The notes under the pieces: model-generated | Databases searched by the model: none | Seen by the model: the letters and a program-made list of their open reading frames with translations, nothing else | What the model was told of the DNA's origin: nothing | Translations under genes and position numbers: made by a program | DNA from: Escherichia coli | GTDB lineage: Bacteria; Pseudomonadota; Gammaproteobacteria; Enterobacterales; Enterobacteriaceae | Direction: 5' to 3' (one strand) | Length of the DNA stretch: 64,000 nt | NCBI RefSeq assembly: GCF_011045215.1 | Contig: NZ_CP049201.1 | In this document: positions 10,196 to 24,537 of the stretch, one piece after another | How positions within the stretch are numbered: position 1 is the stretch's first letter | How the letters are laid out: each line of letters begins with the position of its first letter

Positions 10196-10711
10196 CGCCG
10201 GTGCCCTCCGCTTTCCAGATAAGACGATAATCCTGCACATGCTTTTTACCGGTTTCCGGTACTTTACCCAGCCAGACTTCCTGTAACGGCACACCTGCCG
10301 GAGCCGCAAACGGATCTTCGCCGACCGGAATGTCCTGTTCAAAAGAGAAAGCAAACAAACAAGATAATAAGTTGAATTTAAAGGAATAAAAAAGGCATCA
10401 TTTTTGCTTTTGGTACAAATTCTAGTCCGTATAAACGCGGAAAAATCCGCTAAATTAAGATAAAAAAGATGCTTAGATAGTTACTATGTTTAGCTTCATG
10501 GCTACGGGGAGTAAGTTTGCTCTTTGCTTAATCTCGGTTATGGAAATCCCCATATCGGCATCATGCCCACCAGCGTGACGCATTTTTTTTAATTTCGCGG
10601 GTATAAAAATTTGACGAGGCGGGCGGTCCCATAAGCAATGGGGTGTAGGGATTCCGATCCCCCTGGGGGGGGTATTAAACACCCACCCTATTTAAATACC
10701 GTCTTTTTTGT

Positions 10712-11084: not shown

Positions 11085-11310
11085 TGTGGCGGGTCCTTCC
11101 TGGAAAATGAAACACCGGGGGTGGCCATACGCGCAATTCTTAACTGTTTATGAAAATTTTTCGGGAAAAGTCAGATCCGTTCTTCTTCTCTGTAACTCAT
11201 TGTTTAATGGTAAAATCATCAAAAAAAGAAAGGATCTGGCAGTGGTCATTCTGGGCCCAAAATGACGTTATCAGATCCTTTCTCAGTTTTGTTCAATAAT
11301 TGCGCGGTTG
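11085..11310 (+). other. cos-like site, inverted copy (cosQ-cosN-cosB-like)
   Basis: Plus strand GGGTCCTTCCTGG..GAAACACCGGGGGTGGCCATACGCGC..TTTATGAAAATTTTTCGGG..CCGTTCTTCTTC aligns with phage lambda cos as I recall it; opposite orientation to the other two cos sites. Confidence 0.55.
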
Positions 11311-11895
11311 TCACTCAGCTCTCTGTTGCCGTAACTTCTCCGGCACGTTTCCGGTTGTTTCCATCAGATAATCTTCCAGAATGCGGGGCAGGTTATCGGC
11401 AGTTTTAGCGCACGCATTACAGGCGCGTGCTGTTTCCCTCCTCAGGCCATCGATCATTGCCGGAGTCATCGCGGGAAACTGCCTTTGCATCGTAAGGGGC
11501 AAGCTATTCATGATGGTTGAAATCTGTTGCGCCAGTTTAGACAGTGCATACATACAAAAGCCGGTATCTATAACCTCTCCTGTCTCCCTGGCGTTCTTCA
11601 GTTCCTGCCCGTCAGCCTGTGCTTTAGTGAGACGGTATCGTTCGTACTCTGTTGTGCCTGGCTGTAAATCTGATTCACCAACGGCACGTAAATCATCAAG
11701 CTCACTGCGGAGTTTTTCTTTTTCGATCTCCTTCTCCCTCTGTACATACCATTCGATCACCTGTGAAGAGTCGAAAGTCACCTCCATACCTTTTCCGCCA
11801 CCAGATACATGGGGGAGCCCTTGCATCTGCCAACGTTCAATTGTGCGCGGATCAACACCGAAAATCTCTGCCAGTCTCTTTTTGTTAACATTCAT
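11311..11895 (-). CDS. Terminase small subunit (lambda Nu1-like)
   Basis: MNVNKKRLAEIFGVDPRTIERWQMQGLP...GGGKG...LQPGTTEYERYRL... closely resembles lambda Nu1 throughout. Confidence 0.85.
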   Translation of the reverse strand: MNVNKKRLAEIFGVDPRTIERWQMQGLPHVSGGGKGMEVTFDSSQVIEWYVQREKEIEKEKLRSELDDLRAVGESDLQPGTTEYERYRLTKAQADGQELKNARETGEVIDTGFCMYALSKLAQQISTIMNSLPLTMQRQFPAMTPAMIDGLRRETARACNACAKTADNLPRILEDYLMETTGNVPEKLRQQRAE

Positions 11896-12130
11896 TTATC
11901 AAATCCTCATCAAAAACCACCTCCGACATGAAACGCCTGAAAAACGGGATTTTCCGGCGTTATGGTGTCGTATGTTTATTATAGTTAATTTAAATAAAAA
12001 CATAATGTTACATGCAAGAAGTACCGACATGCTTTTTCCCTGAAAAATTTTCATAAATAGTGAAAATCTGCGCGTCTGCCGCCCCGCGGTGTTTCTGATT
12101 CTGGAAAGGACCCGTGAAAATTGGGGCGAT
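11896..12130 (-). other. cos site of island (cosQ-cosN-cosB)
   Basis: Minus strand ACGGGTCCTTTCC..GAAACACCGC GGGGCGGCAGAC GCGCAG..CTATTTATGAAAATTTTTCAGG about 190 nt upstream of terS start, matching lambda cos geometry. Confidence 0.6.
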
Positions 12131-12194
12131 CACCACCGTTCCGGATACAAAAAAAATCGCGAGACCTTGCCAGCCTCGCGAACGTTCATTTCAG

Positions 12195-12620
12195 TTACTT
12201 AACAGACAGCAACAGCTTTTCATCTTCGGTCAGTCCGGCGTTGCCATCACCGGCTGCTGGCCCAACACATTTCGGGCTGTGCTTTTCCATGTACGCTTCA
12301 AACAGAAAAGCCGTTTTCTTTTCCTGCATCATTGCCTGGGCATCCACGGCAGCCAGTAACGTTTGTGCATAGGTTACTGTCATTACTTCAGAACCACACT
12401 CAATCAGCTTACTGGTGAACTCAGGGTATTTTGATGCCAGCGGTAACGCCTTGATACCCTCTATGCGCTGTTTATCACTCTCAGCCTTTGCAGTAAGCAC
12501 CGTTCGGGCTTCTGTCAGTGATGCGCCATTATTTGCGAGATTTTCCGCAAGCGTCGGGTATTTCTGCGCCTCAGGCAGTGCCATGATCAATGCTCTGGTT
12601 GAATTTGCTTTCTCAGTCAT
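12195..12620 (-). CDS. Scaffolding protein (Nu3-like)
   Basis: 141 aa; ALPEAQKYPTLAENL.../ALPLASKYPEFTSKL... repeats resemble the C-terminal repeat region of the prophage C protein (24914-26395). Confidence 0.5.
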   Translation of the reverse strand: MTEKANSTRALIMALPEAQKYPTLAENLANNGASLTEARTVLTAKAESDKQRIEGIKALPLASKYPEFTSKLIECGSEVMTVTYAQTLLAAVDAQAMMQEKKTAFLFEAYMEKHSPKCVGPAAGDGNAGLTEDEKLLLSVK

Positions 12621-12634
12621 AAATCACCACAAAA

Positions 12635-12964
12635 TTATTGCCCTAAAGGCTGCACGGAAATACCGGAACCAACAAAAGACGACACTTTTTTCTCGAACGT
12701 GTCCGCTGTATCAGGCCAGTTAATTTCATCGATATTAAAAACCCCGCACTTATAAACCTGTGCGCGGTTTTTTGTGGCCGTGTTAATGTCCGATATGGTC
12801 AGATACACCGCCTTACCGGGTGTACCGTCCCACTCAACCATCAGGCCCGCGCCGTTCTGCATCAGCGGAGTTCTCGCTTTAATTTCTCCGGCACTGGCAA
12901 AACAGGCCAGCGTGCTGACCAGTTCCTGCGTGCCGGAAAGGAATTGCGTGTAAGGTGTTGGCAT
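12635..12964 (-). CDS. Head decoration protein (lambda gpD-like), divergent second copy
   Basis: 109 aa; TPLM...GLMVEWDG...VYKCGVF...WPD...GSGISV pattern matches gpD. Confidence 0.75.
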   Translation of the reverse strand: MPTPYTQFLSGTQELVSTLACFASAGEIKARTPLMQNGAGLMVEWDGTPGKAVYLTISDINTATKNRAQVYKCGVFNIDEINWPDTADTFEKKVSSFVGSGISVQPLGQ

Positions 12965-12974
12965 ACGATCCCCT

Positions 12975-14030
12975 TTATTTCACTTCGACGGTAACAAAGC
13001 GACCAATATCCACGGGTACTGGCTGCGGGGCGCTGTGCGTCTGCACGTATTCAATCGCCGGATCGCCCGGTACGATATAATTTTTCGGGTAGTACATCCC
13101 CTCAGAAAATCCCTCGCGTGCCGCGTCCTGATCCATGATGGCACCATAAGCAACAAGGCCTTTATTTTCGGTATTGCCGAAAACCATCATGTTTTGTTTC
13201 AGGAAATATTGCTGCTGCCCGTTTTCGTCGTCATAACGACCGGAATAAACCACGATCGCCACATCACCGAGATACCCCTTGAAGCTGACAACGCCGCCCA
13301 AATCTTTTAGCGCAAGTTCAAGTGACGAGTTTGAACCGCGACGCGTGTCCATTAGTTCGCGGAATCGACGGAACGAGCGCAAAATACGCCAGGCTTCGCC
13401 ACCCATGACGATAATATTTACCGTACCTTCGGAAAAATCAGCGTAAGCCTCAATGTCGCTTATCGGATCAAACGTTTCGGCATCCTGTTTTGACCATTCT
13501 TTCCCGCCAGCCTGCGTAATATGATTGGTTTCGGGTAATCCCCAGTCAATTTCATAACGCTCAATGCCTTCGCCCTCAATAACGTTACGGCCTGTTGTGA
13601 TGGCATTGACCGCCAGCCATTCAACACGCGCTTTGATGGCAGCAAGCTGTTTTTTCTGGCTGTCGTGAACCATTTTTACGCGGCGTAGTGCCGGGGAAGA
13701 CTGACCATTGCCGATCTGTTCTCCAGGCATGCGCATGATTGTTTTGGTGGGATCAATAACGTGTTTGGGCTTCATATAACCCGGCGTGAACGTGTTCGTT
13801 GTGAAACCTTTGTCACGCATAACCTGGCTGCCTGACATTGGAGAACAAAACGGACTCATGACCACGTTTTCAATATCCAGCGTATCAAGTGCAATATCTC
13901 TGGTGCTGAAAGTAGCGACGTTCGGAAAGAACAACGTAGTAAAGAGTGGATTAAATTTAAATTCCGGCACATCTTCGCGCCCGATATTTTTCAGTAGCGT
14001 TGGTGTGCTTACCAGTTGCGGCGCTGTCAT
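12975..14030 (-). CDS. Major capsid protein (lambda gpE-like), divergent second copy
   Basis: 351 aa; TPGYMKPKH, NITQAGGKEWSKQDAETFDP, DTRRGSNSSLELALKDLG motifs shared with lambda E and the prophage E at 23439-24467. Confidence 0.85.
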   Translation of the reverse strand: MTAPQLVSTPTLLKNIGREDVPEFKFNPLFTTLFFPNVATFSTRDIALDTLDIENVVMSPFCSPMSGSQVMRDKGFTTNTFTPGYMKPKHVIDPTKTIMRMPGEQIGNGQSSPALRRVKMVHDSQKKQLAAIKARVEWLAVNAITTGRNVIEGEGIERYEIDWGLPETNHITQAGGKEWSKQDAETFDPISDIEAYADFSEGTVNIIVMGGEAWRILRSFRRFRELMDTRRGSNSSLELALKDLGGVVSFKGYLGDVAIVVYSGRYDDENGQQQYFLKQNMMVFGNTENKGLVAYGAIMDQDAAREGFSEGMYYPKNYIVPGDPAIEYVQTHSAPQPVPVDIGRFVTVEVK

Positions 14031-14236
14031 TACTCACCCCCATGAGGCTGATTCATACCAAGCGCAGCGCGTAAATGGCTGCGTACCATCCAGCCGACTG
14101 ACGGCTTCACCAGGCACAACGGATCAAGGCCGATTTTTTTTCCTGCCTCTGCGTTCTCCTCAAAGCGCGCATTAAGTGCGGCGATAATATCGGGGCTGAT
14201 GTACACGGATACACCGCCCGGCTTCTGTGTTCCCAT
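14030..14236 (-). CDS. Hypothetical protein
   Basis: Small ORF immediately upstream of island capsid gene; no family recognised. Confidence 0.3.
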   Translation of the reverse strand: MGTQKPGGVSVYISPDIIAALNARFEENAEAGKKIGLDPLCLVKPSVGWMVRSHLRAALGMNQPHGGE

Positions 14237-14494
14237 AAATGAGATTCCTCTTTGACTAAAAAACAAACATAACGAAAAGTCATGTCATGATTTTAATTAT
14301 CGTTGCACTTTTTGCAATATAATTGACTATTGTTGCGAATAATGAAATCATTATGTCGTGGTTTTAATCCTTGTACCACAGAGTTGTTTAGCATTAATCA
14401 CGTTAGCGGCGTGAAATCCCCCGGAACCTCATCCCGGGGGATTTTTTTGCGCACAAAAAAGCCGGGAAAAATCCCGGCTTCTGTCACTCGTTGC

Positions 14495-14917
14495 TTAAAA
14501 CGGTATTTCATCCCCGTACGGATCATCATTTCCCGCCTGTTGTTTTGCTCTGCTCAGTGCATCAGTAGCCTGCCCCTGTTGGCCTTTTTTGCCGCCCGGT
14601 CGCGCCGTTCTGGCACTGATTACACTGTCTGCGATAACCTGCCAGCTCTGCCGCGTTTCGCCGTTCTGGCCTGTCCACTGGCTTACCTGCATGTTACCCG
14701 CCACGCTCACCAGTTCGCCTTTGCGGTGTTTTGCCAGTGCGTCGGCCTGTCTGCCAAACGCCAGGACGGATAACCACATCGTCGCCGTTCCGTCATCTGC
14801 CTGGCTGCACGGCAGGGGAACCGCCATACTCGCCATCGCCATTTGTGTTCCCTTGCTGGTGGTCTTTAACTGCGGGTCAGCCACCAGCCGCCCGTAAGCT
14901 GCTATCTGTGCTGTCAT
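14495..14917 (-). CDS. ssb: Single-stranded DNA-binding protein
   Basis: 140 aa with Gly/Gln-rich linker and acidic C-terminal tip ...DDPYGDEIPF typical of SSB. Confidence 0.7.
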   Translation of the reverse strand: MTAQIAAYGRLVADPQLKTTSKGTQMAMASMAVPLPCSQADDGTATMWLSVLAFGRQADALAKHRKGELVSVAGNMQVSQWTGQNGETRQSWQVIADSVISARTARPGGKKGQQGQATDALSRAKQQAGNDDPYGDEIPF

Positions 14918-15165
14918 GCTGTCTGCTCTCCGGTTTTAACGTTGATGGTTGTCACCTGTTCCGCTTCGGCAATCTCCCGCTCTGTCAGCGTGGCAAAGTT
15001 TGCCGCCGCTGTGGTCATGAATGCGCTTATCAGTTCGGGATGTGCTTTTGCGTATCCTTCTCCGGCATGGCGGTCTATTGTTCTGATTGCCACCTTTAAG
15101 GCGTGCTCTGTCATGTCTAACGCTTTATATTTTGGCGCTGTCTTATCTCTGGTTTTTTTGGTCAT
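14914..15165 (-). CDS. Hypothetical protein
   Basis: 83 aa ORF between replication gene/iterons and ssb. Confidence 0.4.
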   Translation of the reverse strand: MTKKTRDKTAPKYKALDMTEHALKVAIRTIDRHAGEGYAKAHPELISAFMTTAAANFATLTEREIAEAEQVTTINVKTGEQTA

Positions 15166-15188
15166 TTCTCACTATTCCCCACTTTTTC

Positions 15189-15367
15189 GCCTCACTTTTT
15201 AAGCTCCCAACATGATTTCCAACCTTGTTTTTTTGTGATTCTAATATGTTGTTTTTCAATGTGTTTTTTATTCCTCACTTTTGAGCCTATATACAGGTTG
15301 AAAAGTGAGGGGCGCGGTTGCTTTTTGTTCAGTTTCTGCTATCCCCTCACTTTTGTGCCTCACTTTT
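15189..15367. repeat. Iteron cluster (putative island replication origin)
   Basis: CCTCACTTTT at 15189, 15273, 15345, 15358 plus inverted copy AAAAGTGAGG at 15301, directly 3' of helicase-primase gene. Confidence 0.55.
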
Positions 15368-16782
15368 TACAGTGGGCGCACATCATCACCGTCAATAGTG
15401 ATAACGCCGTCTCTTTCCAGCTTGTACAGCCAGCGCCGAAAGTTTTTCATCTCATACCCCAGCTTTTTCATATCATCACGCAATAACGGGATAGTGCATT
15501 TATCGCCGCGCTGTGTGCGTGAACGGATACAGCCCCATAGCGCGGCGTGATTCTCCGTCTTGTTTCCGGCCTCCTCAATGCGCTCCAGTTCAACAGGTGG
15601 GCGCGGCTTATCCACTACCACCAGCGACGTGATTAACTCCTTGTCAGCGTCGATAAAAAGCTCCACCACGCGTAAATCGTATGCGGCCTCTTTCAGTTCC
15701 TCTGCGTCCTTCATTTTGGTGCAGGAGATAACCAGGGCTTCACTGTCTGCACCTTCCCGGCGAATACGGTATTCAGCGTCCAGAGATGCACGAAATGCAC
15801 TGGAACCACGCGCCCCCTTTGTTTCATCCTTGCCGGAATGGTGAACCACCAGTACCGTGGCCCCTGTGCGTCGTTTCAGTTCGTCACATCCACGGATAAA
15901 CGCCCCCATATCCCGCGCGTCATTTTCATCATTACCGCCAAAACACCGCGCCAGCGTATCCAGAATAATCATGCGTACCGGTTTACCCGTTTCCCTTTCA
16001 ACCTGGCGGGAAGCGATGACCATTTCATCAATATCAAACTGTGCTGCCGGAAAAATCGGGCGGTTTACCAGGTACAGATTTTTCACCCGTTCATCATTAA
16101 CGATTTCCCATGCTTTGATACGACGAGGGACACCAATGCCACCTTCACCGACGACATACATCACCGAACCATGCGCCACCCTGCGGCCTCCCCAGTGGCG
16201 ACCCGTGGCAACATGACACGCCCAGGAACACGCGAGGAATGATTTATAGGAACCGCTCGCGCCGTATGTGCTGCACAACGAATTAGCCGGAATCACGCCC
16301 TTAACGACATAATCAAGCTGTGTGTCGTACCCTGCAGATCCAATACTCATTGGTAGCGTGGTTTTTCGCTGGTCGTTTTTTTCTTCCTCCGGTATCTCTC
16401 CGGACCGTCTTTTCTGGCGCTCTCGTTCCAGATATTCGCGCCACCCCTCCCGCTTCTGGCTGTGCATTCCCTCAGGGTAATAATTCGCATCCCGTACACC
16501 TGCCGCTGCCAGCTTTTGCCCGATGGCATTAATATTTGACGGCTTGATGTGGCCTGCCTTGTACAGCCGGACACAATAGCGACCATCGTCGATAATTTTC
16601 AGGTCAGCCAGTTCGTCAAGATGGCTGTCTCCAAGCCATACAGGCGGAACATTGTCGCCAGCAAGTCGCCCGTCCTGCTCCTGCCATTGTTTCGCGTGCG
16701 CCCAGGCATCACTACCCGCAAAAATAATGACTTCGGTCATTTTGTCGTGCGGCTGTTTTTTTAAGTTCGGTGCCAGTTTCAT
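15367..16782 (-). CDS. Replication protein, RepA-like helicase/primase (AAA_25-type P-loop NTPase)
   Basis: 471 aa; Walker A GASGSYKS, Walker B RMIILDTLARCF, ...VLVVHHSGKDE...; N-terminal extra domain. Confidence 0.7.
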   Translation of the reverse strand: MKLAPNLKKQPHDKMTEVIIFAGSDAWAHAKQWQEQDGRLAGDNVPPVWLGDSHLDELADLKIIDDGRYCVRLYKAGHIKPSNINAIGQKLAAAGVRDANYYPEGMHSQKREGWREYLERERQKRRSGEIPEEEKNDQRKTTLPMSIGSAGYDTQLDYVVKGVIPANSLCSTYGASGSYKSFLACSWACHVATGRHWGGRRVAHGSVMYVVGEGGIGVPRRIKAWEIVNDERVKNLYLVNRPIFPAAQFDIDEMVIASRQVERETGKPVRMIILDTLARCFGGNDENDARDMGAFIRGCDELKRRTGATVLVVHHSGKDETKGARGSSAFRASLDAEYRIRREGADSEALVISCTKMKDAEELKEAAYDLRVVELFIDADKELITSLVVVDKPRPPVELERIEEAGNKTENHAALWGCIRSRTQRGDKCTIPLLRDDMKKLGYEMKNFRRWLYKLERDGVITIDGDDVRPL

Positions 16783-17078
16783 TTTTTACCCCTGAATGCG
16801 TTAATCATGTTTTTCATTTTCTGAATGTTCGCCCGTGCCTTTGCGTTGCTGGTGGGCTGTTTGCATGGCGTGGCCTGTATCAGTGAAAAATCACGCCGGA
16901 ACTGATAAACAGGCATCACGCAGTCATAGCCGTACCCATCACGGCGGTAAGTAACGCACCGTCCCGCCACGCTTTTAATCGTTACCGTGCCGCCGTAGTT
17001 ATCCCGGAAAATATCGCCGGGGCGGATTTCAGGCCGAGCGGGGCCGCTGGCAGTAAAGCCAGAAATTTTCTGTTTCAT
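16779..17078 (-). CDS. Hypothetical protein
   Basis: 99 aa ORF, start overlaps helicase-primase gene. Confidence 0.4.
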   Translation of the reverse strand: MKQKISGFTASGPARPEIRPGDIFRDNYGGTVTIKSVAGRCVTYRRDGYGYDCVMPVYQFRRDFSLIQATPCKQPTSNAKARANIQKMKNMINAFRGKK

Positions 17079-17094
17079 GGTTTTTATTCCTCTG

Positions 17095-17294
17095 CGCGGG
17101 TCTTGTTGTGTATTTCCATAACCGCGTTTAATTCATCAATAACCGGGGTTAACAGAGTGCTGAAAGCAGAAAATAAATCCCCCCCCCTGTTCGGCATGAA
17201 CTTCGGTTAATTTAATTAATACCGCTTTCATTTCCAGTGCCCGGTTTAATGCATTCTCAGAATGAATAAGAACATCGAAAGGGATTTTATCCAT
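17095..17294 (-). pseudogene. Small ORF interrupted at G9 homopolymer (frameshift or phase-variable)
   Basis: ATG at 17294 reads MDKIPFDVLIHSENALNRALEMKAVLIKLTEVHAEQGGG then poor frame; with G8 it continues ...DLFSAFSTLLTPVIDELNAVMEIHNKTRAEE to a stop 5 nt before next gene. Confidence 0.35.
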
Positions 17295-17753
17295 GGCTTA
17301 CATCCTCCGGGAATTTTCTTCTGTAACGCGCCTCTGCAACATATTCCGCATAGTCCGACGCAATATTGAGAATCTCCACACCCTCTGACCTGTAGCCACT
17401 GGTACTGATAAGAAAAAATGCGGCTTTCATCATGTCGGCAACGCATAACAACGCATCGCCTGTATGTTCCGGTGCGCCATCAAATTCCTGTTTCAGGGCA
17501 TTAAAACGATCATCACGCATAACCCCCCCCCATTTTCACAATCAGTAATCAGGATGGCTTTAGCCTCATTCAGTGCCATATCAGCACTAAATTGCATAAC
17601 AGCCAGTGAGTGAGGAACGAAATCCCCGGCATATTCTGTTTCGCTGGTGGCGTGCTTATGTGCCCTGTCCGCGATAACAGAAATATCAATCAGCGCGTGC
17701 ATCAGCGTTTTGATGGCTTCGGCGGCTGCGTCCTGACGGGTGTTATTGCACAT
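17287..17753 (-). pseudogene. Gene split by G9 homopolymer (86-aa + 77-aa ORFs; fuse with G10)
   Basis: ORF 17493-17753 ends ...CENGGGLCVMIVLMP; one extra G in the tract at 17523-17531 gives ...GGGVMRDDRFNALKQEF... continuous with ORF 17287-17520. Confidence 0.4.
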
Positions 17754-17949
17754 GGCGCACCTCCTGACGAATACGGGCGGCGAATACCATCACGCAGCCA
17801 TCAGGAGATTGCTGACGCGCTTCCTGTTCGTTGGTGGCCTCAATGGTAATCACGCGCGGTTGTGCCGTGCTCAGGGCGATAAAACGCCAGATGTATTTAT
17901 TCAGGTTGTGCGAGTCCCGCCCTTGCGGGTGTGTGGTATGATTTAACAT
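17743..17949 (-). CDS. Small protein, first gene of leftward island operon (Cro-like position)
   Basis: 68 codons (MLNHTTHPQGRD...RHVQ) with RBS GAGGT; divergent from RHH gene across operator region; not in ORF track as a separate ORF. Confidence 0.4.
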   Translation of the reverse strand: MLNHTTHPQGRDSHNLNKYIWRFIALSTAQPRVITIEATNEQEARQQSPDGCVMVFAARIRQEVRHVQ

Positions 17950-18088
17950 AGCTACCTCGATAATCTTGCTATCGTTGGTGGTTAGACGCCCTGCATGTGT
18001 ACCACCACTGCGGGGCGTTGCGTTTTTTGATGTGCACGTGTTAAGGTGTACACCTAACGAACCAAAACATAACGCCATAGGTGTACAC
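17950..18088. promoter_or_regulatory. Divergent promoter/operator region of island
   Basis: Perfect palindrome GGTGTACACC at 18045-18054 and GGTGTACAC at 18080-18088 just before the RHH start; CACGTG at 18033. Confidence 0.5.
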
Positions 18089-18283
18089 ATGTCAACAGTT
18101 ATTAAGCGCGATAAAAAACAAAAAGGCACAGGAAAGGCCCCACCATTCCATATGCGTATAGTCCCTGAATTGAAGGAGCAGTTTGATAACGAAGCCAGTA
18201 ACGATGGAGTAAGTCTTGCCAACTGGCTTAAAGAGTTAGGGCGCAAAGAACTGCTACGGCGCGGAATTGAACCAAAGGGATAA
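18089..18283 (+). CDS. Ribbon-helix-helix-like DNA-binding protein (putative island repressor or antitoxin)
   Basis: 64 aa from MSTVIKRDKKQKG...; basic N-terminus, start right after operator palindromes. Confidence 0.45.
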   Translation: MSTVIKRDKKQKGTGKAPPFHMRIVPELKEQFDNEASNDGVSLANWLKELGRKELLRRGIEPKG

Positions 18284-18292
18284 CTATCACTA

Positions 18293-18823
18293 ATGTCGCA
18301 ACCAGAGGAGTTGCGACTCCGAAGATTACATAGGAAATTAATGATTATGGGATTCGTCATTTTCATTGCGATCGTAATTTTATCCATTTACGTTCTTACC
18401 AAATTATTTATTTCAGAAAATTCACACGACAAAATTAGAGCCGAGGCATCCAGAAGAATTGCACAAGAAGAGGCCGAACGGGCTAAGTTGTATGAAGAGA
18501 GAAAGGAATCATCTGATAATCCTGTTAATAAACAAAAACGAATAACAACACACGAAGATCATTTTTATATGGATATTCATGGTGGTCACAAATATATATG
18601 TGTTGATGCTAAGTTAGTTTTTGAATATGCAAATTTAAAACACAACTATTTTCTTCACGCCTCTCACTATTTCCCTGAGTTAGAGTATGTTTATGGAAAA
18701 AACGAACATGGGAAAATAGTTAGAGTAGATTTGTACGATAAAAAAATTCAAGCTATTAACCCCGATACTGGCGAAAAAATACCTGGTGTGAGACGTTATC
18801 TACGACAGCACAAGATAAAATAG
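18293..18823 (+). CDS. Hypothetical membrane-anchored protein (AT-rich cargo gene)
   Basis: 176 aa; N-terminal TM helix MIMGFVIFIAIVILSIYVLTKLF; markedly AT-rich; followed by hairpin+T-run terminators. Confidence 0.45.
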   Translation: MSQPEELRLRRLHRKLMIMGFVIFIAIVILSIYVLTKLFISENSHDKIRAEASRRIAQEEAERAKLYEERKESSDNPVNKQKRITTHEDHFYMDIHGGHKYICVDAKLVFEYANLKHNYFLHASHYFPELEYVYGKNEHGKIVRVDLYDKKIQAINPDTGEKIPGVRRYLRQHKIK

Positions 18824-19238
18824 CCCACCGGAATTTTTTTCCGGTTACGCTTTGCCCACCAGCCGCAAATGTGGCATTGTTGGCTATGCTCATGCGTTGG
18901 GGATAACGCGCAATTAGTGTTGAAGGGCCACCGTAGCGGGTGGCCTTTGTTTTGCCTGTTATCCGGCAATTGTGGCGCTTCGCCACACGGTTGATATAAT
19001 CCTCCTGCACAGATTCATTTTTTGCGCAGCAGGTTAATTGTTCGCAAGGGCGCTCCGGCAACTGGGCGCTTTTTGTTTTTACCCACCAGCACAATAAAAA
19101 TCTTCATTTTCCATTTTTGCAAAATTTCATGCTTTCCGGACGACTGGCCATATGTCATTTTTTAGCAGAAGATTTTGCCTTGCTGGTGGGTAGCTTCCCG
19201 GTTAACACGATGTACCGTATAATCAGCACCGCACGCGG

Positions 19239-19820
19239 TTACTGAATACGCTCACCAAAGTAAAACTCAGGCTGATATTCACGTATCAGCCTTTTTTCTT
19301 CTTCCTCCAGCTCACGCTTTTTGCGCTTACATGCCTGTAGTTCCCTCCCCTTCTCGCTGGCACTTATCTGGTATTGCTCTTTGCGACGGGAAAAATCCTG
19401 TAATGCGCCCCACGGGATACCATAAGCCCCCGTTTTTCTGATACCCGGTATCACATTTCTGAATACCCAGTTACTGAAACGATGGGCGAACGTGCCAGGA
19501 GTAGCAGCTTTTCGACTTCTGGCAATCAGCTTGTAAAAACCAGATTCAGAAACGACGCTATGATTTGGATTTCCGCGAATACCGTAAGTTAAAGTTACGG
19601 TATTACTTTCATCATCATCCAGAGCTTGCAACGCCATGCGTGAATTAGTCAGTTCCAGCGCAGCGCAGACATCCTTTGCAACAAACCACGGATCGCCGTT
19701 CAGATACACCACGCGAACGTTCACACTATCAAAGCGCAGAACGACCAGATCACGAATATCACAGAATTTTTTCACTGGACGTGCGTCACCCTTGCCAGTC
19801 ACGGCAATATTTTTATTCAT
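19239..19820 (-). CDS. Bro-N domain protein (putative antirepressor)
   Basis: 193 aa; N-terminal ...GDPWFVAKDVCAALEL... Bro-N-like; coiled-coil C-terminus. Confidence 0.55.
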   Translation of the reverse strand: MNKNIAVTGKGDARPVKKFCDIRDLVVLRFDSVNVRVVYLNGDPWFVAKDVCAALELTNSRMALQALDDDESNTVTLTYGIRGNPNHSVVSESGFYKLIARSRKAATPGTFAHRFSNWVFRNVIPGIRKTGAYGIPWGALQDFSRRKEQYQISASEKGRELQACKRKKRELEEEEKRLIREYQPEFYFGERIQ

Positions 19821-19870
19821 CGCTTTTTACCTCACATACAAAAAACCCCGCATTGCGCGGGGTATATCAA

Positions 19871-20080
19871 TCATTGACGATATTCATTAGCTTGTTTTCG
19901 TTGTCTTTCCAGCCACGATGCAACATCATCACGATGCCATGCGTTGCGTCGCCCAATCTTAAAGGGGCGTGGAAATTTATTTTTTTCATCATTCATGAAA
20001 GCGTAAAATGCACTCATTGCACCGTAGCGAAGCTCTGCCATCACGTCTTTGGTAAATAGAATATTGCCGTTAGTGCTCAT
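19871..20080 (-). CDS. AlpA-family transcriptional regulator/excisionase-like
   Basis: 69 aa, ...RRNAWHRDDVASWLE... typical AlpA/Xis HTH; immediately downstream of P4-type int. Confidence 0.75.
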   Translation of the reverse strand: MSTNGNILFTKDVMAELRYGAMSAFYAFMNDEKNKFPRPFKIGRRNAWHRDDVASWLERQRKQANEYRQ

Positions 20081-20086
20081 ATTGCC

Positions 20087-21319
20087 TCACATATTCACTA
20101 CTTTTAGCCCCTGATGACCACCAGAACGACGGATAATTCCCTTTCTGGCATCATCAACAAAATCACCAATCCATTGCATCATGATCTTACGTTGCTCAAA
20201 ATATTTTGAGCGATTATAAATATCACGAATAGCATCGCCGCTTTTATGGGCTAATGCTGCCTCAATAACATCTGGGTTAAACCCTTCTTCGTTGAGTAAC
20301 GTACTCCACATAGCCCGGAATCCGTGGGCAGTTGCAATACCATAAAATTGTCCATCTTTGAAACACTTATGACGCAACACGCTTGATATAGCTTTCCCCG
20401 GATTCTTTGGAGAAAAAAATATATAGCTACCACATTTTATTTTATTCATTTCATTTAAAATATCCACGGCTTGCCGTGAAAGCGGAACTACGTGTTCACG
20501 TCCACACTTCATTCTTTCAGGGGGAATTGTCCAGATACAATTTTCTAAATCAATTTCCTCCCATTTTGCCTCCCTTGCTTCACATGGTCGTACCATAGTG
20601 AAAATCTGGAACAAAAGAGAGCATCTTATAGAGATATTACTTGTAGTATCCCACCAGTTCAAAAATTCTGATAACAGTTCAACTGGTAATGCCTTTAATG
20701 GGGTATGTTTTTTTGTTGCAAATGCATTTCTTATTGTTGATAGCGGGTTATTTTTAATTACTCCAGAGTTAACACAGTAATTCATTATTTCATTAATTTT
20801 TGAAATAATTTTATCCAATACAGAATTACGATCAGAAAATTGATTAAGCAATGGTATGACCACAGGCGCGGTCATATCATGTATGTACACATTTCCAAAT
20901 ACAGGGATTATATGTCTGTTCAATAACTCTTCTATTGTCTGTAAAGTCGACAGTCGCAAATCACCTTTTTTCTTAAAATTAAACCATTCAATTGCAATAG
21001 CACCAAACGTCTGTAAGTGCTTTCTTTTAGCCTCGAGTCGTTTTTCTGCCCGGTATGATAACGGATCTATATCCCGTGCCAACAATCTGCGCAGATTATC
21101 GCGTTCTTCTCTGGCTTCAACCAGCGTGAAATCGGGGTATCGCCCTATAGTGTATGTTTGCCGCTTCTTCGTAAAAGGTTGTACATAACGAAAACGCCAC
21201 GATTTACTACCGGCTTTTGACACATAAAGCAAAAGCCCAAACCCATCATATAGAGCGTAATCTTTCTCTCGTGGCCTGGCGCTTTTTACCTCTGATGCAG
21301 TAAGAGGCTTCACCGACAT
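20087..21319 (-). CDS. Tyrosine integrase, P4/CP4-57 type
   Basis: N-terminus MSVKPLTASEVKSARPREKDYALYDGFGLLLYVSKAGSKSWRFRY typical of P4-like integrases; C-terminal catalytic domain ...AHGFRAMWSTLLNE... Confidence 0.9.
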   Translation of the reverse strand: MSVKPLTASEVKSARPREKDYALYDGFGLLLYVSKAGSKSWRFRYVQPFTKKRQTYTIGRYPDFTLVEAREERDNLRRLLARDIDPLSYRAEKRLEAKRKHLQTFGAIAIEWFNFKKKGDLRLSTLQTIEELLNRHIIPVFGNVYIHDMTAPVVIPLLNQFSDRNSVLDKIISKINEIMNYCVNSGVIKNNPLSTIRNAFATKKHTPLKALPVELLSEFLNWWDTTSNISIRCSLLFQIFTMVRPCEAREAKWEEIDLENCIWTIPPERMKCGREHVVPLSRQAVDILNEMNKIKCGSYIFFSPKNPGKAISSVLRHKCFKDGQFYGIATAHGFRAMWSTLLNEEGFNPDVIEAALAHKSGDAIRDIYNRSKYFEQRKIMMQWIGDFVDDARKGIIRRSGGHQGLKVVNM

Positions 21320-21433
21320 ACAAGCACTCCAATACAAATTTTTTCTAGTCCATGCGCTGGTTCCTTTTGCCAGAATACTGGCGATAAAAAAGCGAAAAAC
21401 AAGGAACAATGCACACAATGAAAAAACCGCAAC

Positions 21434-21898
21434 TTATTGAATAAGAAGAAAAACAAAAAGAAACGGTAACGAAAGATAATGATTGCATAGTCCAAAAGAG
21501 ACACGGAAAACGATGTAGTCGTCCAGCAGTCGGTCGAAGGTATCCACCTCAGCATCAATAAAAACCGCCGGATCAACGTTATCCAGCCCGAACGTGGCTC
21601 CATCAATCCAGTCAGATAAATCCATTGCCAGACAGCGGGCAAATATCTGCGGTTTTGGCACGTTTTCCGTCTTTCCGGCCCGATCAGTCACCACAAACAG
21701 ATCGCATTTCAGCGTGACCCGTGTCTGCCCGTCGGCAAACTGAGCCTTGTCCCAGCCGGGTACATCCACAAACACGGCAGGCGTCACCAGTTGCGTCACT
21801 TTTTCCGGGTACTCATCGGCATCTTCCACCCAGGGAATTTGTTTCAGACTGTCAATCACTGCCTGATGCCAGGTTCCCATCATCAATGGTTCCATCAT
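21434..21898 (-). CDS. Putative tail-completion/head-tail adaptor-like protein, C-terminus atypical at island junction
   Basis: 154 aa after Z-like gene; last about 20 residues (LCNHYLSLPFLFVFLLIQ) are low-complexity and read into the A-rich junction next to island int. Confidence 0.4.
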   Translation of the reverse strand: MMEPLMMGTWHQAVIDSLKQIPWVEDADEYPEKVTQLVTPAVFVDVPGWDKAQFADGQTRVTLKCDLFVVTDRAGKTENVPKPQIFARCLAMDLSDWIDGATFGLDNVDPAVFIDAEVDTFDRLLDDYIVFRVSFGLCNHYLSLPFLFVFLLIQ

Positions 21899-22617
21899 TC
21901 CATCCCCTTAAATACCCGGAATTTCAGTTCATGCTCAAAATTTTTCAGGATCAGTGCTTCCGCATCAGGGAAAACAAAATCCTCTATACGGTTCAGCATG
22001 GCTTCATAAATATCAATTTCCGCTTCGCGCACCCTTCGTCGTCCGGATGCCTGCCGGACCAGTACCGTCTTACGTCGTGAAATGCGTCCGCGCCGGTTTT
22101 CAGACTCAAACTCATTAACAAAAGCCTCGTCACCTGACCAGGTGGTGACCGGTATTGCCTCCCCGGCGGGCTTAAAACGTATCTCCGGCGCTTTCCTGCG
22201 ACGGGAAGCCGGTGCAAAACGCCCCCGTTCATCACGCAGCTGATGGCGTTCACCGCGTCGCCCCCCACTGATGCGTCCGCGCAGATCACGCACTTTGATG
22301 GCGTTCAGGCCGAACCACACCTTTACCTCATCAAACTCATCGCCATTTCGACGAATGATAAAAGCATTCAGGACACGTTTTTTGATCATTTTCTGGCTGC
22401 GTGGCGCAACCTGTTTTTTAAACTCTGCCATGGCCTTCATCCGCAGTGCGGACGCGGCTCTTTTCAGCGCCACGCCCCAGGCTTTACGGATCTGGCTTTT
22501 TGAACCACCCAGTTTAGCGATAATTTTCAGCACATCATCCTCGTCAATATCGACGACGAGGTTTCGTGCCAGCCGTCGCTGCCGGACAGTGCTTCGTTCA
22601 TGCTCTCTGACTGTCAT
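21895..22617 (-). CDS. Head-tail joining/virion morphogenesis protein (gpZ-like position)
   Basis: About 240 aa basic protein following FII-like gene. Confidence 0.45.
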   Translation of the reverse strand: MTVREHERSTVRQRRLARNLVVDIDEDDVLKIIAKLGGSKSQIRKAWGVALKRAASALRMKAMAEFKKQVAPRSQKMIKKRVLNAFIIRRNGDEFDEVKVWFGLNAIKVRDLRGRISGGRRGERHQLRDERGRFAPASRRRKAPEIRFKPAGEAIPVTTWSGDEAFVNEFESENRRGRISRRKTVLVRQASGRRRVREAEIDIYEAMLNRIEDFVFPDAEALILKNFEHELKFRVFKGME

Positions 22618-23005
22618 AACGTTTACTCGGTCGGACAGGGGCGGCGGGTGTACTTCTTCCGGGTTCTCCCCGCGCAAGAGTAATGGTAATCACACCATGA
22701 CCCGCAGTGCCTGACTCATCCCAGCCAGGATCGACCACCTGGTAGGGTTCGCCGTGGATCATGACCCTGTCATATTTTTTCAGTCCGGCAACCCATGCGC
22801 TCCGGGTAAATAACACCGGTGCAGTATCACGAATTTCGCCGCTGCCAGTGTTCATCCCGGTGTTATCTGCCGGGGCATCAAAAACAGCACGGATTTTTCT
22901 TTCCGTGCCGCCCGGATATATGCTGATTTCCGTCCCCATCGTATCCAGGATGATGTCATCCGCATCACTCATGGCCTGATCGAACAGATTATCGGACATC
23001 ATCAC
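22598..23005 (-). CDS. Head-tail connector protein (lambda FII-like)
   Basis: N-terminus MMMSDNLFDQA... resembles gpFII; follows FI-like gene. Confidence 0.55.
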   Translation of the reverse strand: MMMSDNLFDQAMSDADDIILDTMGTEISIYPGGTERKIRAVFDAPADNTGMNTGSGEIRDTAPVLFTRSAWVAGLKKYDRVMIHGEPYQVVDPGWDESGTAGHGVITITLARGEPGRSTPAAPVRPSKRYDSQRA

Positions 23006-23388
23006 TCCCGGATTTTTTCTGCCAGACCATCCGCCAGCAACGCAGGAACTGTGGCTTCATTAACCAGCACAACACTGGAGGCCCGGGCGAACATCAACAT
23101 TTTGCCCGTCACCGCATCACGGGACGGCATATGTGCCGTTTTCAGCATGCGCACCCGAACGAGTCCCCGCTCAGAATACACCTCATTACGGGCATCCCCT
23201 CCGGATGCATCACGCTGTTCATCATGCACATCATCCTGTTCTGTCCCTTCCCCATCGAATCCGGCGGCCTCCTCTTCCCATTCCGCCAGGCGCTGTTCAA
23301 GATCGGCTTTTGAACCTGAAATATCTGCTTCACGCCCCAGAATCTCTGCCAGCTCCTGCAGGCGTTCAGTCATCTGCTCTTTTGTCAT
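23002..23388 (-). CDS. DNA packaging protein (lambda FI-like)
   Basis: Start MTKEQMTERLQELAE...; acidic linker; position after E as in lambda. Confidence 0.6.
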   Translation of the reverse strand: MTKEQMTERLQELAEILGREADISGSKADLEQRLAEWEEEAAGFDGEGTEQDDVHDEQRDASGGDARNEVYSERGLVRVRMLKTAHMPSRDAVTGKMLMFARASSVVLVNEATVPALLADGLAEKIRE

Positions 23389-23438
23389 CACATTTCTCCC
23401 GTGCGATAAAGAAAAAGGCGGGAATATCCCGCCTGACC

Positions 23439-24467
23439 TTATTTCACCTGAACCACCACAAACGCGTCCGGATCCGGCAACACCATCAACGGCGCAGACT
23501 GCGTCATGGTATATTCGCACCCCGGGTCCCCCACCTCTAACCAGTGTTTCGGATAACGAATTGCAGAGGTGATCCCTTCACTCAGCGCCTGGTTATCCTG
23601 GATTGCGCCATAACAACGGACACCCTCCACCTGAGTGTTTCCAAGAATCAGTGTGCCTTCCGGCAGATAACGCTGCTCATCCCCGTTTTCATCAACATAC
23701 GTTGTTTTCGCCACCATGATGGCCAGATCACCGTAATAACCTTTAAAAGAAACCACGGAACCCAGATCTTTCAGCGCGGTTTCCAGTTCAGATTTTGAGC
23801 CACGGCGGGTATCCAGTTTTTCACGAAACAGCTTAAAACCGTTCAGCATACGCCAGACAGTACCGTCCATAATCGCAATATTGATGGTACCGGAAGCAAA
23901 ATCGCAGTACGCATCCAGATCATGCGTCGGATCAAAGGTGTCAGCATTCTGTTTTGACCATTCGCGTCCCCCTGCCTGCGTTATGTTATTGGCGGCAGAA
24001 CGTCCAAAATCCACTTCCACCGTCTCAAACTGTTCACCGCTCATGGTGTACTTACCCTGCAGAACAGCGCTGACCGCCTGCATTTCTTCCACCTGCACAA
24101 TCGCCTGCTCTTCCTGTTTCAGGTTATCAGTCAGAATACGCAGGCGACGGTAGGCCGGGTCATTAAGACGGGCCGGATCTTCCCCCGGAAGACGCTCCAC
24201 CGCCTGCTGATAATCCAGCCGGTGTTTTGGTTTAACATAGCCGGGGCGTAACACGCGGGTTTCACCACCACGACTGCGCAGTACCTTACCTGACACAACC
24301 GGAGACACATATGCCGCAACCGGTGTTTTTCCGGTGATTTTATCCAGCATCACTTCCTGAGTATGGAAAGTGACCGTACGACGAAAAAACAGCTCCAGAA
24401 ACAGCGCACGGAATTTCACTTTCTGCTCGGTGTAGCCGAGCAACTGACGCGTGGTAAATAACCCCAT
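23439..24467 (-). CDS. Major capsid protein (lambda gpE-like)
   Basis: ...AAYVSPVVSGKVLRSRGG...PGYVKPKH...VQVEEMQAVSAVLQGKYTMSGE...DTRRGSKSELETALKDLG very close to lambda E as recalled. Confidence 0.9.
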   Translation of the reverse strand: MGLFTTRQLLGYTEQKVKFRALFLELFFRRTVTFHTQEVMLDKITGKTPVAAYVSPVVSGKVLRSRGGETRVLRPGYVKPKHRLDYQQAVERLPGEDPARLNDPAYRRLRILTDNLKQEEQAIVQVEEMQAVSAVLQGKYTMSGEQFETVEVDFGRSAANNITQAGGREWSKQNADTFDPTHDLDAYCDFASGTINIAIMDGTVWRMLNGFKLFREKLDTRRGSKSELETALKDLGSVVSFKGYYGDLAIMVAKTTYVDENGDEQRYLPEGTLILGNTQVEGVRCYGAIQDNQALSEGITSAIRYPKHWLEVGDPGCEYTMTQSAPLMVLPDPDAFVVVQVK

Positions 24468-24537
24468 AATTGACTTTCCTTTAAAAACACAAACGAACCG
24501 CATCACGACCCGTTTTTTTCAGTTAATCACTTCACCA

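What the first reader, a model, noticed from the sequence alone, without database searches (positions are those of the whole stretch)
17743..18823. Divergent switch with palindromic operators and an AT-rich membrane protein gene co-transcribed with the RHH regulator
Two GGTGTACACC palindromes sit between a 68-aa leftward gene and an RHH-like gene; the RHH gene is followed by a 176-aa, very AT-rich, N-terminally membrane-anchored protein of unknown family, then strong terminators. A cargo gene expressed together with the maintenance repressor is the typical position for superinfection-exclusion or abortive-infection functions (as rexAB sits beside cI in lambda); the RHH plus downstream gene could alternatively be a toxin-antitoxin pair.
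Basis: partly seen in the sequence, partly recalled or inferred. Interest (0 to 1): 0.55.

Follow-up and report, generated by a model that had tools for sequence, protein, structure and literature searches.

The report
Satellite repressor switch with membrane-protein cargo
A small phage-parasite island in an E. coli-like genome carries a real Arc-type repressor/operator switch, and just downstream of the repressor gene sits a rare membrane-anchored protein of unknown function that is most likely an accessory (possibly phage-excluding) gene and not a toxin-antitoxin partner.

Summary
The 68-aa leftward gene is Icd-like. The rightward 64-aa gene is an Arc-type ribbon-helix-helix (RHH) protein. 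The two operators are AGGTGTACACCT (18044-18055, perfect) and AGGTGTACACAT (18079-18090, 10 of 12, overlapping the RHH ribosome-binding site and start codon). They bracket a near-consensus leftward promoter. In related islands the operator cores change together with the RHH beta-strand, so this is a genuine repressor switch of a PICI-like satellite that sits inside a prophage.

The "176-aa" ORF most likely starts at 18341, giving 160 aa. The product has an N-terminal membrane helix, a charged helix, and a confidently modelled small beta-barrel that probably faces the cytoplasm. Its family is tiny: about 14 distinct sequences among billions, and 15 of 5426 E. coli genomes. It has no sequence match in any family library, and its only fold resemblance is to Sm/WYL-type barrels.

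In five other satellites the gene occupies the same slot, after a different regulator (YlcI/YnfO). In Serratia prophages it stands alone. It is therefore mobile low-GC cargo. The toxin-antitoxin reading is disfavoured. A role in phage exclusion or defence is plausible but untested.

The parts
17743..17949 (-). Icd-like gene (68 aa), first gene of the leftward replication/packaging operon of the island
   Evidence: NCBIfam NF033153 E=1.3e-19; phrog_6196 E=4.9e-44; annotated the same way in RefSeq relatives.
17985..18028 (.). Conserved stem-loop (17985-18019) followed on the + strand by a T-run (18023-18028). It lies in the leader between the Icd-like start codon and the operators. Its role is unknown: it could be an element of the leftward mRNA leader or a + strand terminator.
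   Evidence: Fold energy -25.3 kcal/mol, z=-2.8. In 8 islands, 4 of 14 pairs keep pairing through changes on both sides. About 84 nt here are conserved in more than 1300 E. coli genomes.
18044..18055 (.). Operator O1, the perfect 12-bp palindrome AGGTGTACACCT, just downstream of the predicted leftward transcription start
   Evidence: The position is conserved and the core varies with the RHH beta-strand in L004-L007.
18079..18090 (.). Operator O2, AGGTGTACACAT (10 of 12 palindromic), inside the spacer of the leftward promoter and overlapping the RHH ribosome-binding site and ATG
18066..18095 (-). Leftward promoter-like site: -35 TTGACA (18095-18090), 18-nt spacer, -10 TATGTT (ends at 18066)
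   Evidence: 10 of 12 consensus matches. The same site is present in L004. The -35 hexamer is formed by RHH codons 1-3.
18089..18283 (+). Arc-like ribbon-helix-helix repressor gene (64 aa)
   Evidence: Profile match to Arc 1b28 E=7e-4. Pfam HicB/Arc/RHH_1 hits in homologues. phrog_228 Arc-like E=2.4e-5. Substitutions by codon position are 100/86/325 in the + frame.
18296..18318 (+). Intercistronic hairpin GTCGCAAC-7 nt-GTTGCGAC, not followed by a T-run
   Evidence: Sequence; fold -14.6 kcal/mol, z=-2.45; identical in four other E. coli copies.
18341..18823 (+). Cargo gene. The likely 160-aa product has a membrane helix (residues 1-24), a charged helix and linker, and a C-terminal small beta-barrel of about 90 aa. 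The longest ORF starts at 18293 (176 aa).
18824..19094 (-). Leftover 5' part of a second Icd-like gene with its own copy of the leader hairpin. It contains the + strand terminator-like hairpins 18923-18948 and 19046-19073.
   Evidence: RefSeq pseudogene 'Icd-like, partial' at the matching place in L002, L019 and L020; terminator scan; ORF translation.
19239..19820 (-). BRO-N / anti-repressor-like gene (193 aa). Context only; proposed (by inference) to be the anti-repressor for the RHH.
   Evidence: phrog_2593 anti-repressor E=1.1e-82; RefSeq 'BRO-N domain-containing protein'.
19871..21418 (-). AlpA/Xis-like HTH gene (19871-20080) and tyrosine integrase gene (20087-21418). Context: the end of the island.

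Best explanation
The region is the control centre of a roughly 10-kb integrase-bearing phage satellite (PICI-like, with its own head, decoration and small-terminase genes) lodged inside a prophage.

(1) The switch. The 64-aa Arc-type RHH protein binds two related palindromes, O1 and O2. They bracket the strong leftward promoter of the Icd-like/replication/packaging operon: O2 lies in the promoter spacer and O1 lies just after the start site. Binding keeps the island silent. Because O2 covers the RHH gene's own ribosome-binding site and start codon, the protein probably also limits its own synthesis. Derepression is inferred to come through the neighbouring BRO-N/Ant-like protein, as in the P22 and P1 immI regions.

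(2) The cargo. The gene after the RHH is a mobile, low-GC accessory gene. In this island it has lost any separate promoter, so it is most likely read through from the RHH transcript and made while the island is quiescent. Its product is a single-pass inner-membrane protein. By the positive-inside rule its N-terminus is outside and its C-terminal Sm/WYL-like small beta-barrel is in the cytoplasm, held at the membrane by a charged helix.

I commit to the reading that it is a resident-state accessory factor that interferes with incoming or competing phages at the inner membrane (exclusion or abortive infection), probably by binding a negatively charged ligand or a phage protein through its conserved basic C-terminal segment (HP-x-TGERIPGIKRYLRQ).

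Shown: the gene identities, the operator-repressor covariation, the rarity and mobility of the cargo family, and the fold class. Inferred: DNA binding, co-transcription, topology and the anti-phage role.
For: Switch:
- The RHH is assigned to the Arc type and the + strand is the coding strand.
- The 10-mer AGGTGTACAC occurs only at these two sites in the 64 kb.
- The leftward promoter TTGACA-18-TATGTT is overlapped by both sites.
- Operator cores and the RHH beta-strand change together: PPFHMRI with GTGTACAC, PQFRMRI with GTGGCCAC or GTGACCAC, PAFQVRI with GTGCGTAC.
- The module is present in 212 E. coli genomes and in several other Enterobacterales.

Cargo:
- The family numbers about 14 distinct sequences in searches of 5.8 and 1.8 billion proteins.
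- It is in 15 of 5426 E. coli genomes at 98.7% identity or more, while the flanks are 95-97% identical.
- Its GC is lower than its surroundings in all 10 loci, by at least 4 points in 8 of them.
- It occupies the same slot (after the divergent regulator, convergent on alpA-int) in L010, L012, L016 and L018, where the regulator is of the YlcI/YnfO family; the short L013 contig shows only the alpA-int side.
- It is a lone opposite-strand gene in Serratia prophages.
- Relatives carry their own promoter-like site, and a terminator-like hairpin follows the regulator gene.
- The C-domain model has pLDDT 93 and pTM 0.82.
- There are no K/R residues before the membrane helix and 2-6 after it in 11 of 12 members.
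- Published precedent: small inner-membrane exclusion proteins made by prophages (PMC10883804).
Against: - No sequence similarity to any known exclusion or defence protein (PADLOC, PHROGs, NCBIfam, Pfam, PDB).
- No sigma-70-like rightward promoter was found for the RHH gene, so transcription of the RHH-cargo pair is unproven.
- A cytoplasmic domain is not the usual geometry for proteins that block DNA injection from the periplasmic side. If the upstream ATG at 18293 were used, the topology would flip.
- Satellites need helper phages, so a broad exclusion function could cost the island.
Confidence: 0.42

Rival explanations
1. Toxin-antitoxin pair: the RHH is the antitoxin and autorepressor, and the membrane protein is a toxin that damages the membrane when the RHH is lost.
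For: The gene order (small RHH first, then a second gene on the same strand) fits. RefSeq names several RHH homologues 'HicB family antitoxin'. The product has a membrane helix.
Against: - The RHH module is in 212 E. coli genomes but the membrane gene is in only 15. L007 has the RHH alone.
- Family members sit after a different regulator (YlcI/YnfO) or beside no regulator at all.
- The gaps are 57-147 nt, with a terminator-like hairpin and an own promoter-like site in relatives. That is not the tight coupling of a TA operon.
- The operators sit on the promoter of the divergent replication operon.
- The 64-aa protein has no room for a toxin-binding domain, there is no HicA gene, and the 'HicB' label reflects only the shared RHH domain.
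Confidence: 0.06
2. A part of the satellite's own life cycle rather than defence. For example, a membrane-tethered sensor or sequestering factor that feeds into the RHH/Ant switch, or a factor that alters helper lysis timing or DNA entry to the island's benefit.
For: In all four satellites where the upstream side is visible, the gene lies next to the divergent regulator, whichever regulator family that is. WYL-type barrels are ligand sensors that control defence and mobile-element genes (PMC4012209). One member (P0009) has two barrels in tandem.
Against: Most islands with the same switch lack the gene. The Serratia prophage copies are not next to such a regulator. The low GC and own promoter point to an exchangeable accessory gene.
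Confidence: 0.18
3. A host-fitness cargo gene unrelated to phages, such as an envelope stress, colonisation or virulence factor, like the bor and lom genes of lambda.
For: It has the typical position and composition of a prophage accessory gene. The E. coli carriers are mostly animal or food isolates. No defence homology was found.
Against: The predicted cytoplasmic orientation and the nucleic-acid-binder-like fold fit poorly with a surface or envelope role. The family is extremely rare, with no sign of spread with any pathotype.
Confidence: 0.17
4. The ORF is not a functional gene but an AT-rich remnant that happens to be open.
For: It is flanked by a recombination scar, the truncated Icd-like gene. 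No family annotation exists.
Against: Homologues at 25-51% identity keep the same architecture and 15 invariant residues. The fold model is confident. A good ribosome-binding site is present.
Confidence: 0.03

Closest known systems
P22 immI region (mnt / arc / ant) and P1 immI region (c4 / icd / ant)
   Same: Small Arc-type RHH repressors act on palindromic operators in a compact divergent promoter region. An Icd-type gene and an Ant/BRO-type anti-repressor gene lie in the same neighbourhood. The comparison with immI rests on my own knowledge of those regions.
   Different: Here the RHH faces an Icd-like/replication/packaging operon of a satellite, not the ant gene. No C4/CI-type antisense RNA was found. 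The Ant-like gene is in the int-alpA operon.
lambda rexAB beside cI; P22 sieA/sieB; Tuc2009 Sie2009; TP-J34 Ltp; HK97 gp15 (prophage exclusion genes expressed in the lysogen)
   Same: An accessory gene for a small membrane protein lies in the lysogeny module, here between the repressor gene and the integrase gene. Its size (160 aa) is close to that of SieA (162-164 aa) (PMC10883804). That Sie2009 lies between the repressor and integrase genes and is of similar size is from my own knowledge.
   Different: There is no sequence similarity to any of them. The protein has a single N-terminal helix with a probably cytoplasmic beta-barrel, whereas SieA has three membrane helices. The carrier is a satellite, not a phage. 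No phenotype is known.
WYL domain superfamily (Sm-like SH3 beta-barrel ligand sensors: CapW, BrxR, PafBC, DriD)
   Different: Pfam WYL gives no match. There is no wHTH or WCX partner domain; instead the barrel is fused to a membrane anchor. The match strengths are those of generic small barrels.
PICI / capsid-forming PICI satellites of Enterobacterales
   Same: The island has int, an AlpA-like gene, a replication helicase, its own major head, decoration and small-terminase genes, is about 10 kb, and has variable accessory slots (bioRxiv 10.1101/2025.02.11.637232).
   Different: No portal, protease or large terminase was seen inside this island. Control appears to rest on an RHH repressor divergent from an Icd-like operon. 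I did not find that arrangement described in the papers I read.

Membership tests
Arc/MetJ-type ribbon-helix-helix repressors | Beta-strand plus two helices, about 45 aa, recognisable by profile | tested here: met
   The profile of 17 homologues matches Arc (1b28) over Arc residues 2-49, E=7e-4; Mnt and an 'Arc family' chain match more weakly. The Pfam HicB RHH domain is found at E<=1e-3 in 9 of 17 members, with weaker Arc, RHH_1 and RHH_5 hits.
Arc/MetJ-type ribbon-helix-helix repressors | Inverted-repeat operators at the regulated promoter, with specificity set by the beta-strand | tested here: met
   Two palindromes overlap the leftward promoter. Their cores change together with beta-strand residues in L004-L007. 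Actual binding was not testable.
HicAB toxin-antitoxin (the RefSeq name of several RHH homologues) | Adjacent hicA toxin gene, and a HicB N-terminal RNase H-like domain | tested here: not met
   The protein is 64 aa and consists of the RHH only. No HicA-like ORF is nearby. The neighbouring gene has no family hit.
Type II toxin-antitoxin operon in general | The two genes are found together and are tightly coupled | tested here: not met
   15 of 212 RHH-bearing genomes have the second gene. The second gene occurs with another regulator family or alone. The gaps are 57-147 nt, with terminator- and promoter-like sites in relatives.
Type II toxin-antitoxin operon in general | Toxicity of the second product, neutralised by the first | not testable with these tools
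   Needs expression experiments.
Prophage superinfection-exclusion membrane proteins (SieA, Sie2009, gp15, Ltp, Imm) | Small membrane protein encoded in the lysogeny module | tested here: met
   A single hydrophobic helix at residues 1-19/24 (mean hydropathy 2.94). The gene lies between the repressor and int, and in the same position in relatives.
Prophage superinfection-exclusion membrane proteins (SieA, Sie2009, gp15, Ltp, Imm) | Sequence relationship to a known Sie family | tested here: not met
   No hit in PHROGs or PADLOC. tblastn against 50,697 phage records gave only a chance-level hit.
Prophage superinfection-exclusion membrane proteins (SieA, Sie2009, gp15, Ltp, Imm) | Blocks DNA entry of superinfecting phage | not testable with these tools
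   Needs plaque, potassium-efflux and DNA-injection assays.
lambda RexAB-type abortive infection | Homology to RexA/RexB, and a two-component sensor plus channel | tested here: not met
   PADLOC gave no hit. There is a single gene with one membrane helix.
WYL domain superfamily | [quoted passage not shown] | tested here: met
WYL domain superfamily | Profile match to Pfam WYL (PF13280) or a related model | tested here: not met
   No WYL hit for the protein, the C-domain, or any of the 11 aligned C-domain sequences. The PDB profile search found none.
WYL domain superfamily | Conserved basic residues lining a ligand groove; binding of a nucleic-acid or nucleotide ligand | tested here: inconclusive
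   K135, R146, R152 and R155 are invariant or nearly so, but they were not mapped onto a groove. Ligand binding is not testable here. The criterion is taken from PMC4012209.
Moron (autonomous accessory gene of a prophage) | Own promoter and terminator, composition unlike the flanks, patchy distribution | tested here: inconclusive
   Composition and patchy distribution are met. An own promoter-like site is seen in L010 and L016, but none in this window. Terminators follow about 100 nt downstream.
C4 / CI antisense RNA immunity (P1, P7, P4) upstream of icd | Match to Rfam C4 (RF01695) in the icd leader | tested here: not met
   No hit at the gathering threshold in the window or at E<=10 in 17600-20200.
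Capsid-forming PICI | Full set of own head-assembly and packaging genes (capsid, protease, portal, both terminase subunits, connectors) | tested here: inconclusive
   Major head, decoration, a weak scaffold/protease-like ORF and the small terminase were found. No portal or large terminase appears among the island ORFs listed. Not searched exhaustively.

The most novel reading that the evidence does not exclude
The 160-aa protein founds a new class of single-gene, satellite- and prophage-borne immunity factor. It would be a WYL/Sm-like ligand-sensing barrel tethered to the cytoplasmic face of the inner membrane. There it would detect incoming or replicating phage nucleic acid (or an injection protein) at the entry site, and either block the infection or pass the signal to the satellite's RHH/Ant switch so that the island is induced.
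Probability: 0.15. Interest if true: 0.7.

Novelty: new variant of a known kind. Interest (0 to 1): 0.4.

Why it matters
It gives a concrete, testable repressor-operator pair for a widespread group of enterobacterial satellites. This RHH module is in 212 of 5426 complete E. coli genomes, and the Icd-leader element is in more than 1300. The natural operator and beta-strand variants could serve as immunity types. It also flags a very rare, uncharacterised membrane-tethered beta-barrel family in the position where prophages keep exclusion genes. If the protein proves to be anti-phage, it would add a small single-gene system with an unusual architecture and would show that this slot in satellites is a cargo site worth mining.

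Tried and rejected
1. C4/CI-type antisense RNA in the Icd leader or in the 18.8-19.2 kb spacer: no Rfam hit.
3. Sequence link to WYL through E. coli K-12 YafY: that protein turned out to be a YfjS/YafY lipoprotein domain (PF20494), not WYL, and hhalign gave nothing.
4. PADLOC, PHROGs, NCBIfam, Pfam and PDB sequence searches with the protein, with the family profile and with separate C-domains: nothing below E of about 0.01.
5. tblastn against phage and plasmid collections: no relatives. IMG/VR held only two near-identical copies.
6. Search for a sigma-70-like rightward promoter for the RHH gene: none found in this window or in four related loci.
7. Search for att direct repeats of 11 bp or more around the island ends: none found in the intervals tried.
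8. The long antisense ORF over the RHH gene (17743-18387, - strand; annotated as a gene in some RefSeq relatives): rejected by the codon-position pattern.
Full report
**What is at the coordinates.**
- The - strand gene 17743-17949 (68 aa) is an Icd-like protein (NCBIfam NF033153, E=1.3e-19; phrog_6196).
- The + strand gene 18089-18283 encodes 64 aa. On its own it hits only weakly: phrog_228 'Arc-like repressor' at E=2.4e-5 and Pfam HicB at 0.012.
- A profile of 17 homologues from E. coli, Edwardsiella, Enterobacter, Providencia, Pantoea, Yersinia and Symbiopectobacterium matches P22 Arc over nearly its whole length (E=7e-4). Nine of the 17 reach E<=1e-3 on the RHH domain of Pfam HicB.
- Some RefSeq relatives annotate a long ORF on the opposite strand. 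However, substitutions among five diverged copies fall 100/86/325 on codon positions 1/2/3 of the + frame, so the RHH gene is the real one.

**The operators.**
- AGGTGTACACCT (18044-18055) is a perfect 12-bp palindrome. AGGTGTACACAT (18079-18090) matches 10 of 12 positions. The two are 35 bp apart.
- The exact 10-mer occurs nowhere else in the 64 kb.
- A near-consensus leftward promoter (TTGACA, 18 nt, TATGTT; 18095-18066) has O2 in its spacer and O1 just downstream of the expected start. Its -35 hexamer is formed by RHH codons 1-3.
- The strongest evidence is comparative. In related islands the two sites keep their positions and their AGGTG...CACCT arms, but the cores differ together with the RHH beta-strand: PPFHMRI with GTGTACAC (window, L001, L002, L004); PQFRMRI with GTGGCCAC or GTGACCAC (L005, L006); PAFQVRI with GTGCGTAC (L007). 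That is the pattern expected of a repressor and its operators diversifying into immunity types.
- No sigma-70-like rightward promoter was found, so how the RHH gene is transcribed remains open.

**The setting.**
- The region belongs to an island of about 10 kb (roughly 11.3-21.4 kb of the window). Its genes are: small terminase, a scaffold-like ORF, head decoration, major head protein, SSB, RepA-type helicase, DUF4222, a frameshifted phrog_2512 gene, the Icd-like gene; then the RHH and the cargo gene on the other strand; then BRO-N/anti-repressor, an AlpA/Xis-like HTH gene and a tyrosine integrase.
- It is flanked by prophage baseplate genes on one side and prophage neck and major-head genes on the other. 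Two E. coli genomes show the same arrangement.
- Closely related islands with another integrase sit at tRNA-Pro next to yejM.
- This is a PICI-like satellite.
- The Icd-like gene, the Arc-like RHH and the Ant-like gene together recall the immI regions of P22 and P1 (my own knowledge). No C4/CI antisense RNA was detected.
- A published experiment shows that an Icd-like plus primase gene block in an E. coli prophage element can cause cell death when triggered (bioRxiv 10.1101/2023.04.06.535777). That fits with the need to keep this operon tightly repressed.

**The cargo gene: start site and architecture.**
- The longest ORF is 18293-18823 (176 aa), but the product is probably 160 aa, starting at ATG 18341.
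- Every homologue starts directly at the hydrophobic helix.
- Other E. coli copies have AGGAG 5 nt before this ATG. The only two differences in the 16 upstream codons are non-synonymous; one of them creates the AGGAG ribosome-binding site.
- The upstream codons are occupied by a conserved hairpin, 18296-18318.
- The protein has one strongly hydrophobic helix at its very N-terminus. There are no K/R residues before the helix and 2-6 within 15 residues after it in 11 of 12 family members. The positive-inside rule therefore places the rest of the protein in the cytoplasm. If the 176-aa form were made, its five upstream K/R residues would predict the opposite orientation.

**The cargo gene: fold.**
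- A charged helix and a variable linker lead to a conserved C-terminal domain of about 90 aa (motifs VDAxLI, HATHYFP, G, HPxTGERIPGIKRYLRQ).
- AlphaFold modelled this domain with pLDDT 93 and pTM 0.82 as a helix plus a five-stranded small beta-barrel with a short C-terminal helix.
- In Foldseek against AFDB50, nine of the eleven hits that follow the three family or family-like entries (ranks 4-14) are annotated 'WYL domain-containing' (E 5e-3 to 0.16, TMq 0.54-0.67).
- There is no sequence-level link to WYL or to anything else.
- I therefore call the fold Sm/WYL-like and do not claim membership of the superfamily.

**The cargo gene: distribution.**
- The family is extremely small. One 90%-identity cluster (78 member sequences) was found among 5.8 billion proteins, nine representatives among 1.84 billion, and about 14 distinct proteins after a profile search.
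- It is in 15 of 5426 complete E. coli genomes, always in this Icd-RHH-gene arrangement. The gene is 98.7-99.1% identical among them while the flanks are 95-97% identical.
- There are no relatives in the phage or plasmid collections, and only two near-identical copies in IMG/VR.
- The RHH/operator module itself is in 212 genomes at 80% coverage or more. It can stand alone (L007) or be followed by other small genes (L004).
- Diverged family members (25-51% identical) lie in the same slot in five other satellite contigs. In the four with upstream sequence (L010, L012, L016, L018) the gene follows a regulator that diverges from an Icd-like gene, and all five with downstream sequence converge on alpA-int. 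In those four the regulator is a YlcI/YnfO-family protein, not this RHH.
- Two Serratia prophage copies are lone opposite-strand genes near a Bro-N gene and the lysis genes.
- In L010 and L016 the gene has its own promoter-like site (TTCAGA, 17 nt, TATAAT or TATGAT). In L018 and L010 a terminator-like hairpin follows the regulator gene.
- The gene's GC is lower than its surroundings in all 10 loci, by at least 4 points in 8 of them.
- All of this describes an exchangeable accessory gene (a moron). In this window it has been joined directly to the RHH gene: a 57-nt gap, a hairpin with no T-run, and no promoter-like site.
- Downstream it abuts a truncated second Icd-like gene with its own copy of the conserved leader hairpin.

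**Interpretation.**
- I rate the switch as very likely real (about 0.75-0.8).
- I rate the gene being accessory cargo expressed from the repressor side as likely (about 0.6-0.7).
- The anti-phage role rests on position and architecture only. Small inner-membrane exclusion proteins encoded in prophage lysogeny modules are well documented (PMC10883804), but I found no homology to any of them. I give the committed composite explanation 0.42.
- The toxin-antitoxin reading fails the co-occurrence and coupling tests (0.06).
- Two other readings remain open: a role in the satellite's own control or spread, and a host-fitness role unrelated to phages (about 0.18 and 0.17).

**Novelty and interest.**
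- The switch is a new member of a familiar kind.
- The cargo protein is an uncharacterised family with an unusual combination (membrane anchor plus Sm/WYL-like barrel) in a familiar genomic niche.
- Overall this is a modestly interesting lead that can be tested directly. It would become considerably more interesting if a phage-related phenotype or ligand binding were shown.

Noticed in passing
window 11300-21418, flanks 9572-10354 and 21895-24506: The whole satellite-like island sits between a prophage's baseplate genes and its neck and major-head genes, so a satellite is integrated inside the morphogenesis region of a prophage. Related islands interrupt a terminase large-subunit gene (L003, L016) or lie next to head genes (L010). 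Others with a different integrase sit at tRNA-Pro/yejM (L002, L020).
   Followed up: partly
window 17287-17753 (poly-C run about 17525-17533): A run of nine or more C splits a phrog_2512 gene into two ORFs (86 and 77 aa). The gene is intact (154 aa) in L019 7009-7473. This could be a frameshift mutation, a sequencing error or a slippage-prone tract.
   Followed up: partly
window 17985-18028: A conserved stem-loop lies between the Icd-like start codon and the operators, with compensatory base changes across eight islands, including those with a YlcI/YnfO regulator. On the + strand it looks like an intrinsic terminator pointing at the RHH gene. On the - strand it is part of the Icd-like mRNA leader and is followed by the conserved sequence UAACCACCAACG. 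Its function is unknown.
   Followed up: partly
window 18824-19094 (- strand): A truncated second Icd-like gene with its own leader hairpin lies directly after the cargo gene. This suggests that the cargo arrived by recombination between the control regions of two satellites.
   Followed up: partly
L004 3493-4233 and L006 3510-4253 (- strand): RefSeq annotates ORFs of about 246 aa antisense to the RHH homologue. The codon-position pattern shows that the + strand RHH is the real gene, so these annotations are probably spurious.
   Followed up: yes
L004 3617-4750: One island carries two consecutive pairs, each an RHH-type gene followed by a 67-75-aa ORF beginning MTN(N/K). This is another kind of content in the slot after the regulator.
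   Followed up: no
L010 1312-1593 and L018 2960-3265: A homologous 93/101-aa gene with no family hit directly follows the membrane-protein gene in two satellites. It may be a partner gene, and it is absent from the window.
   Followed up: no
P0009 (L014 230-1033): One family member has the membrane helix followed by two copies of the C-terminal barrel domain.
   Followed up: no
window 39643-39817 (- strand): A strong match to the sok antitoxin RNA (Rfam RF01794, 109 bits), so a hok/sok-type locus lies elsewhere in the window.
   Followed up: no
window 33902-33972 (- strand): A tRNA-like gene just above the Rfam threshold (36.4 bits), with an imperfect acceptor stem.
   Followed up: no
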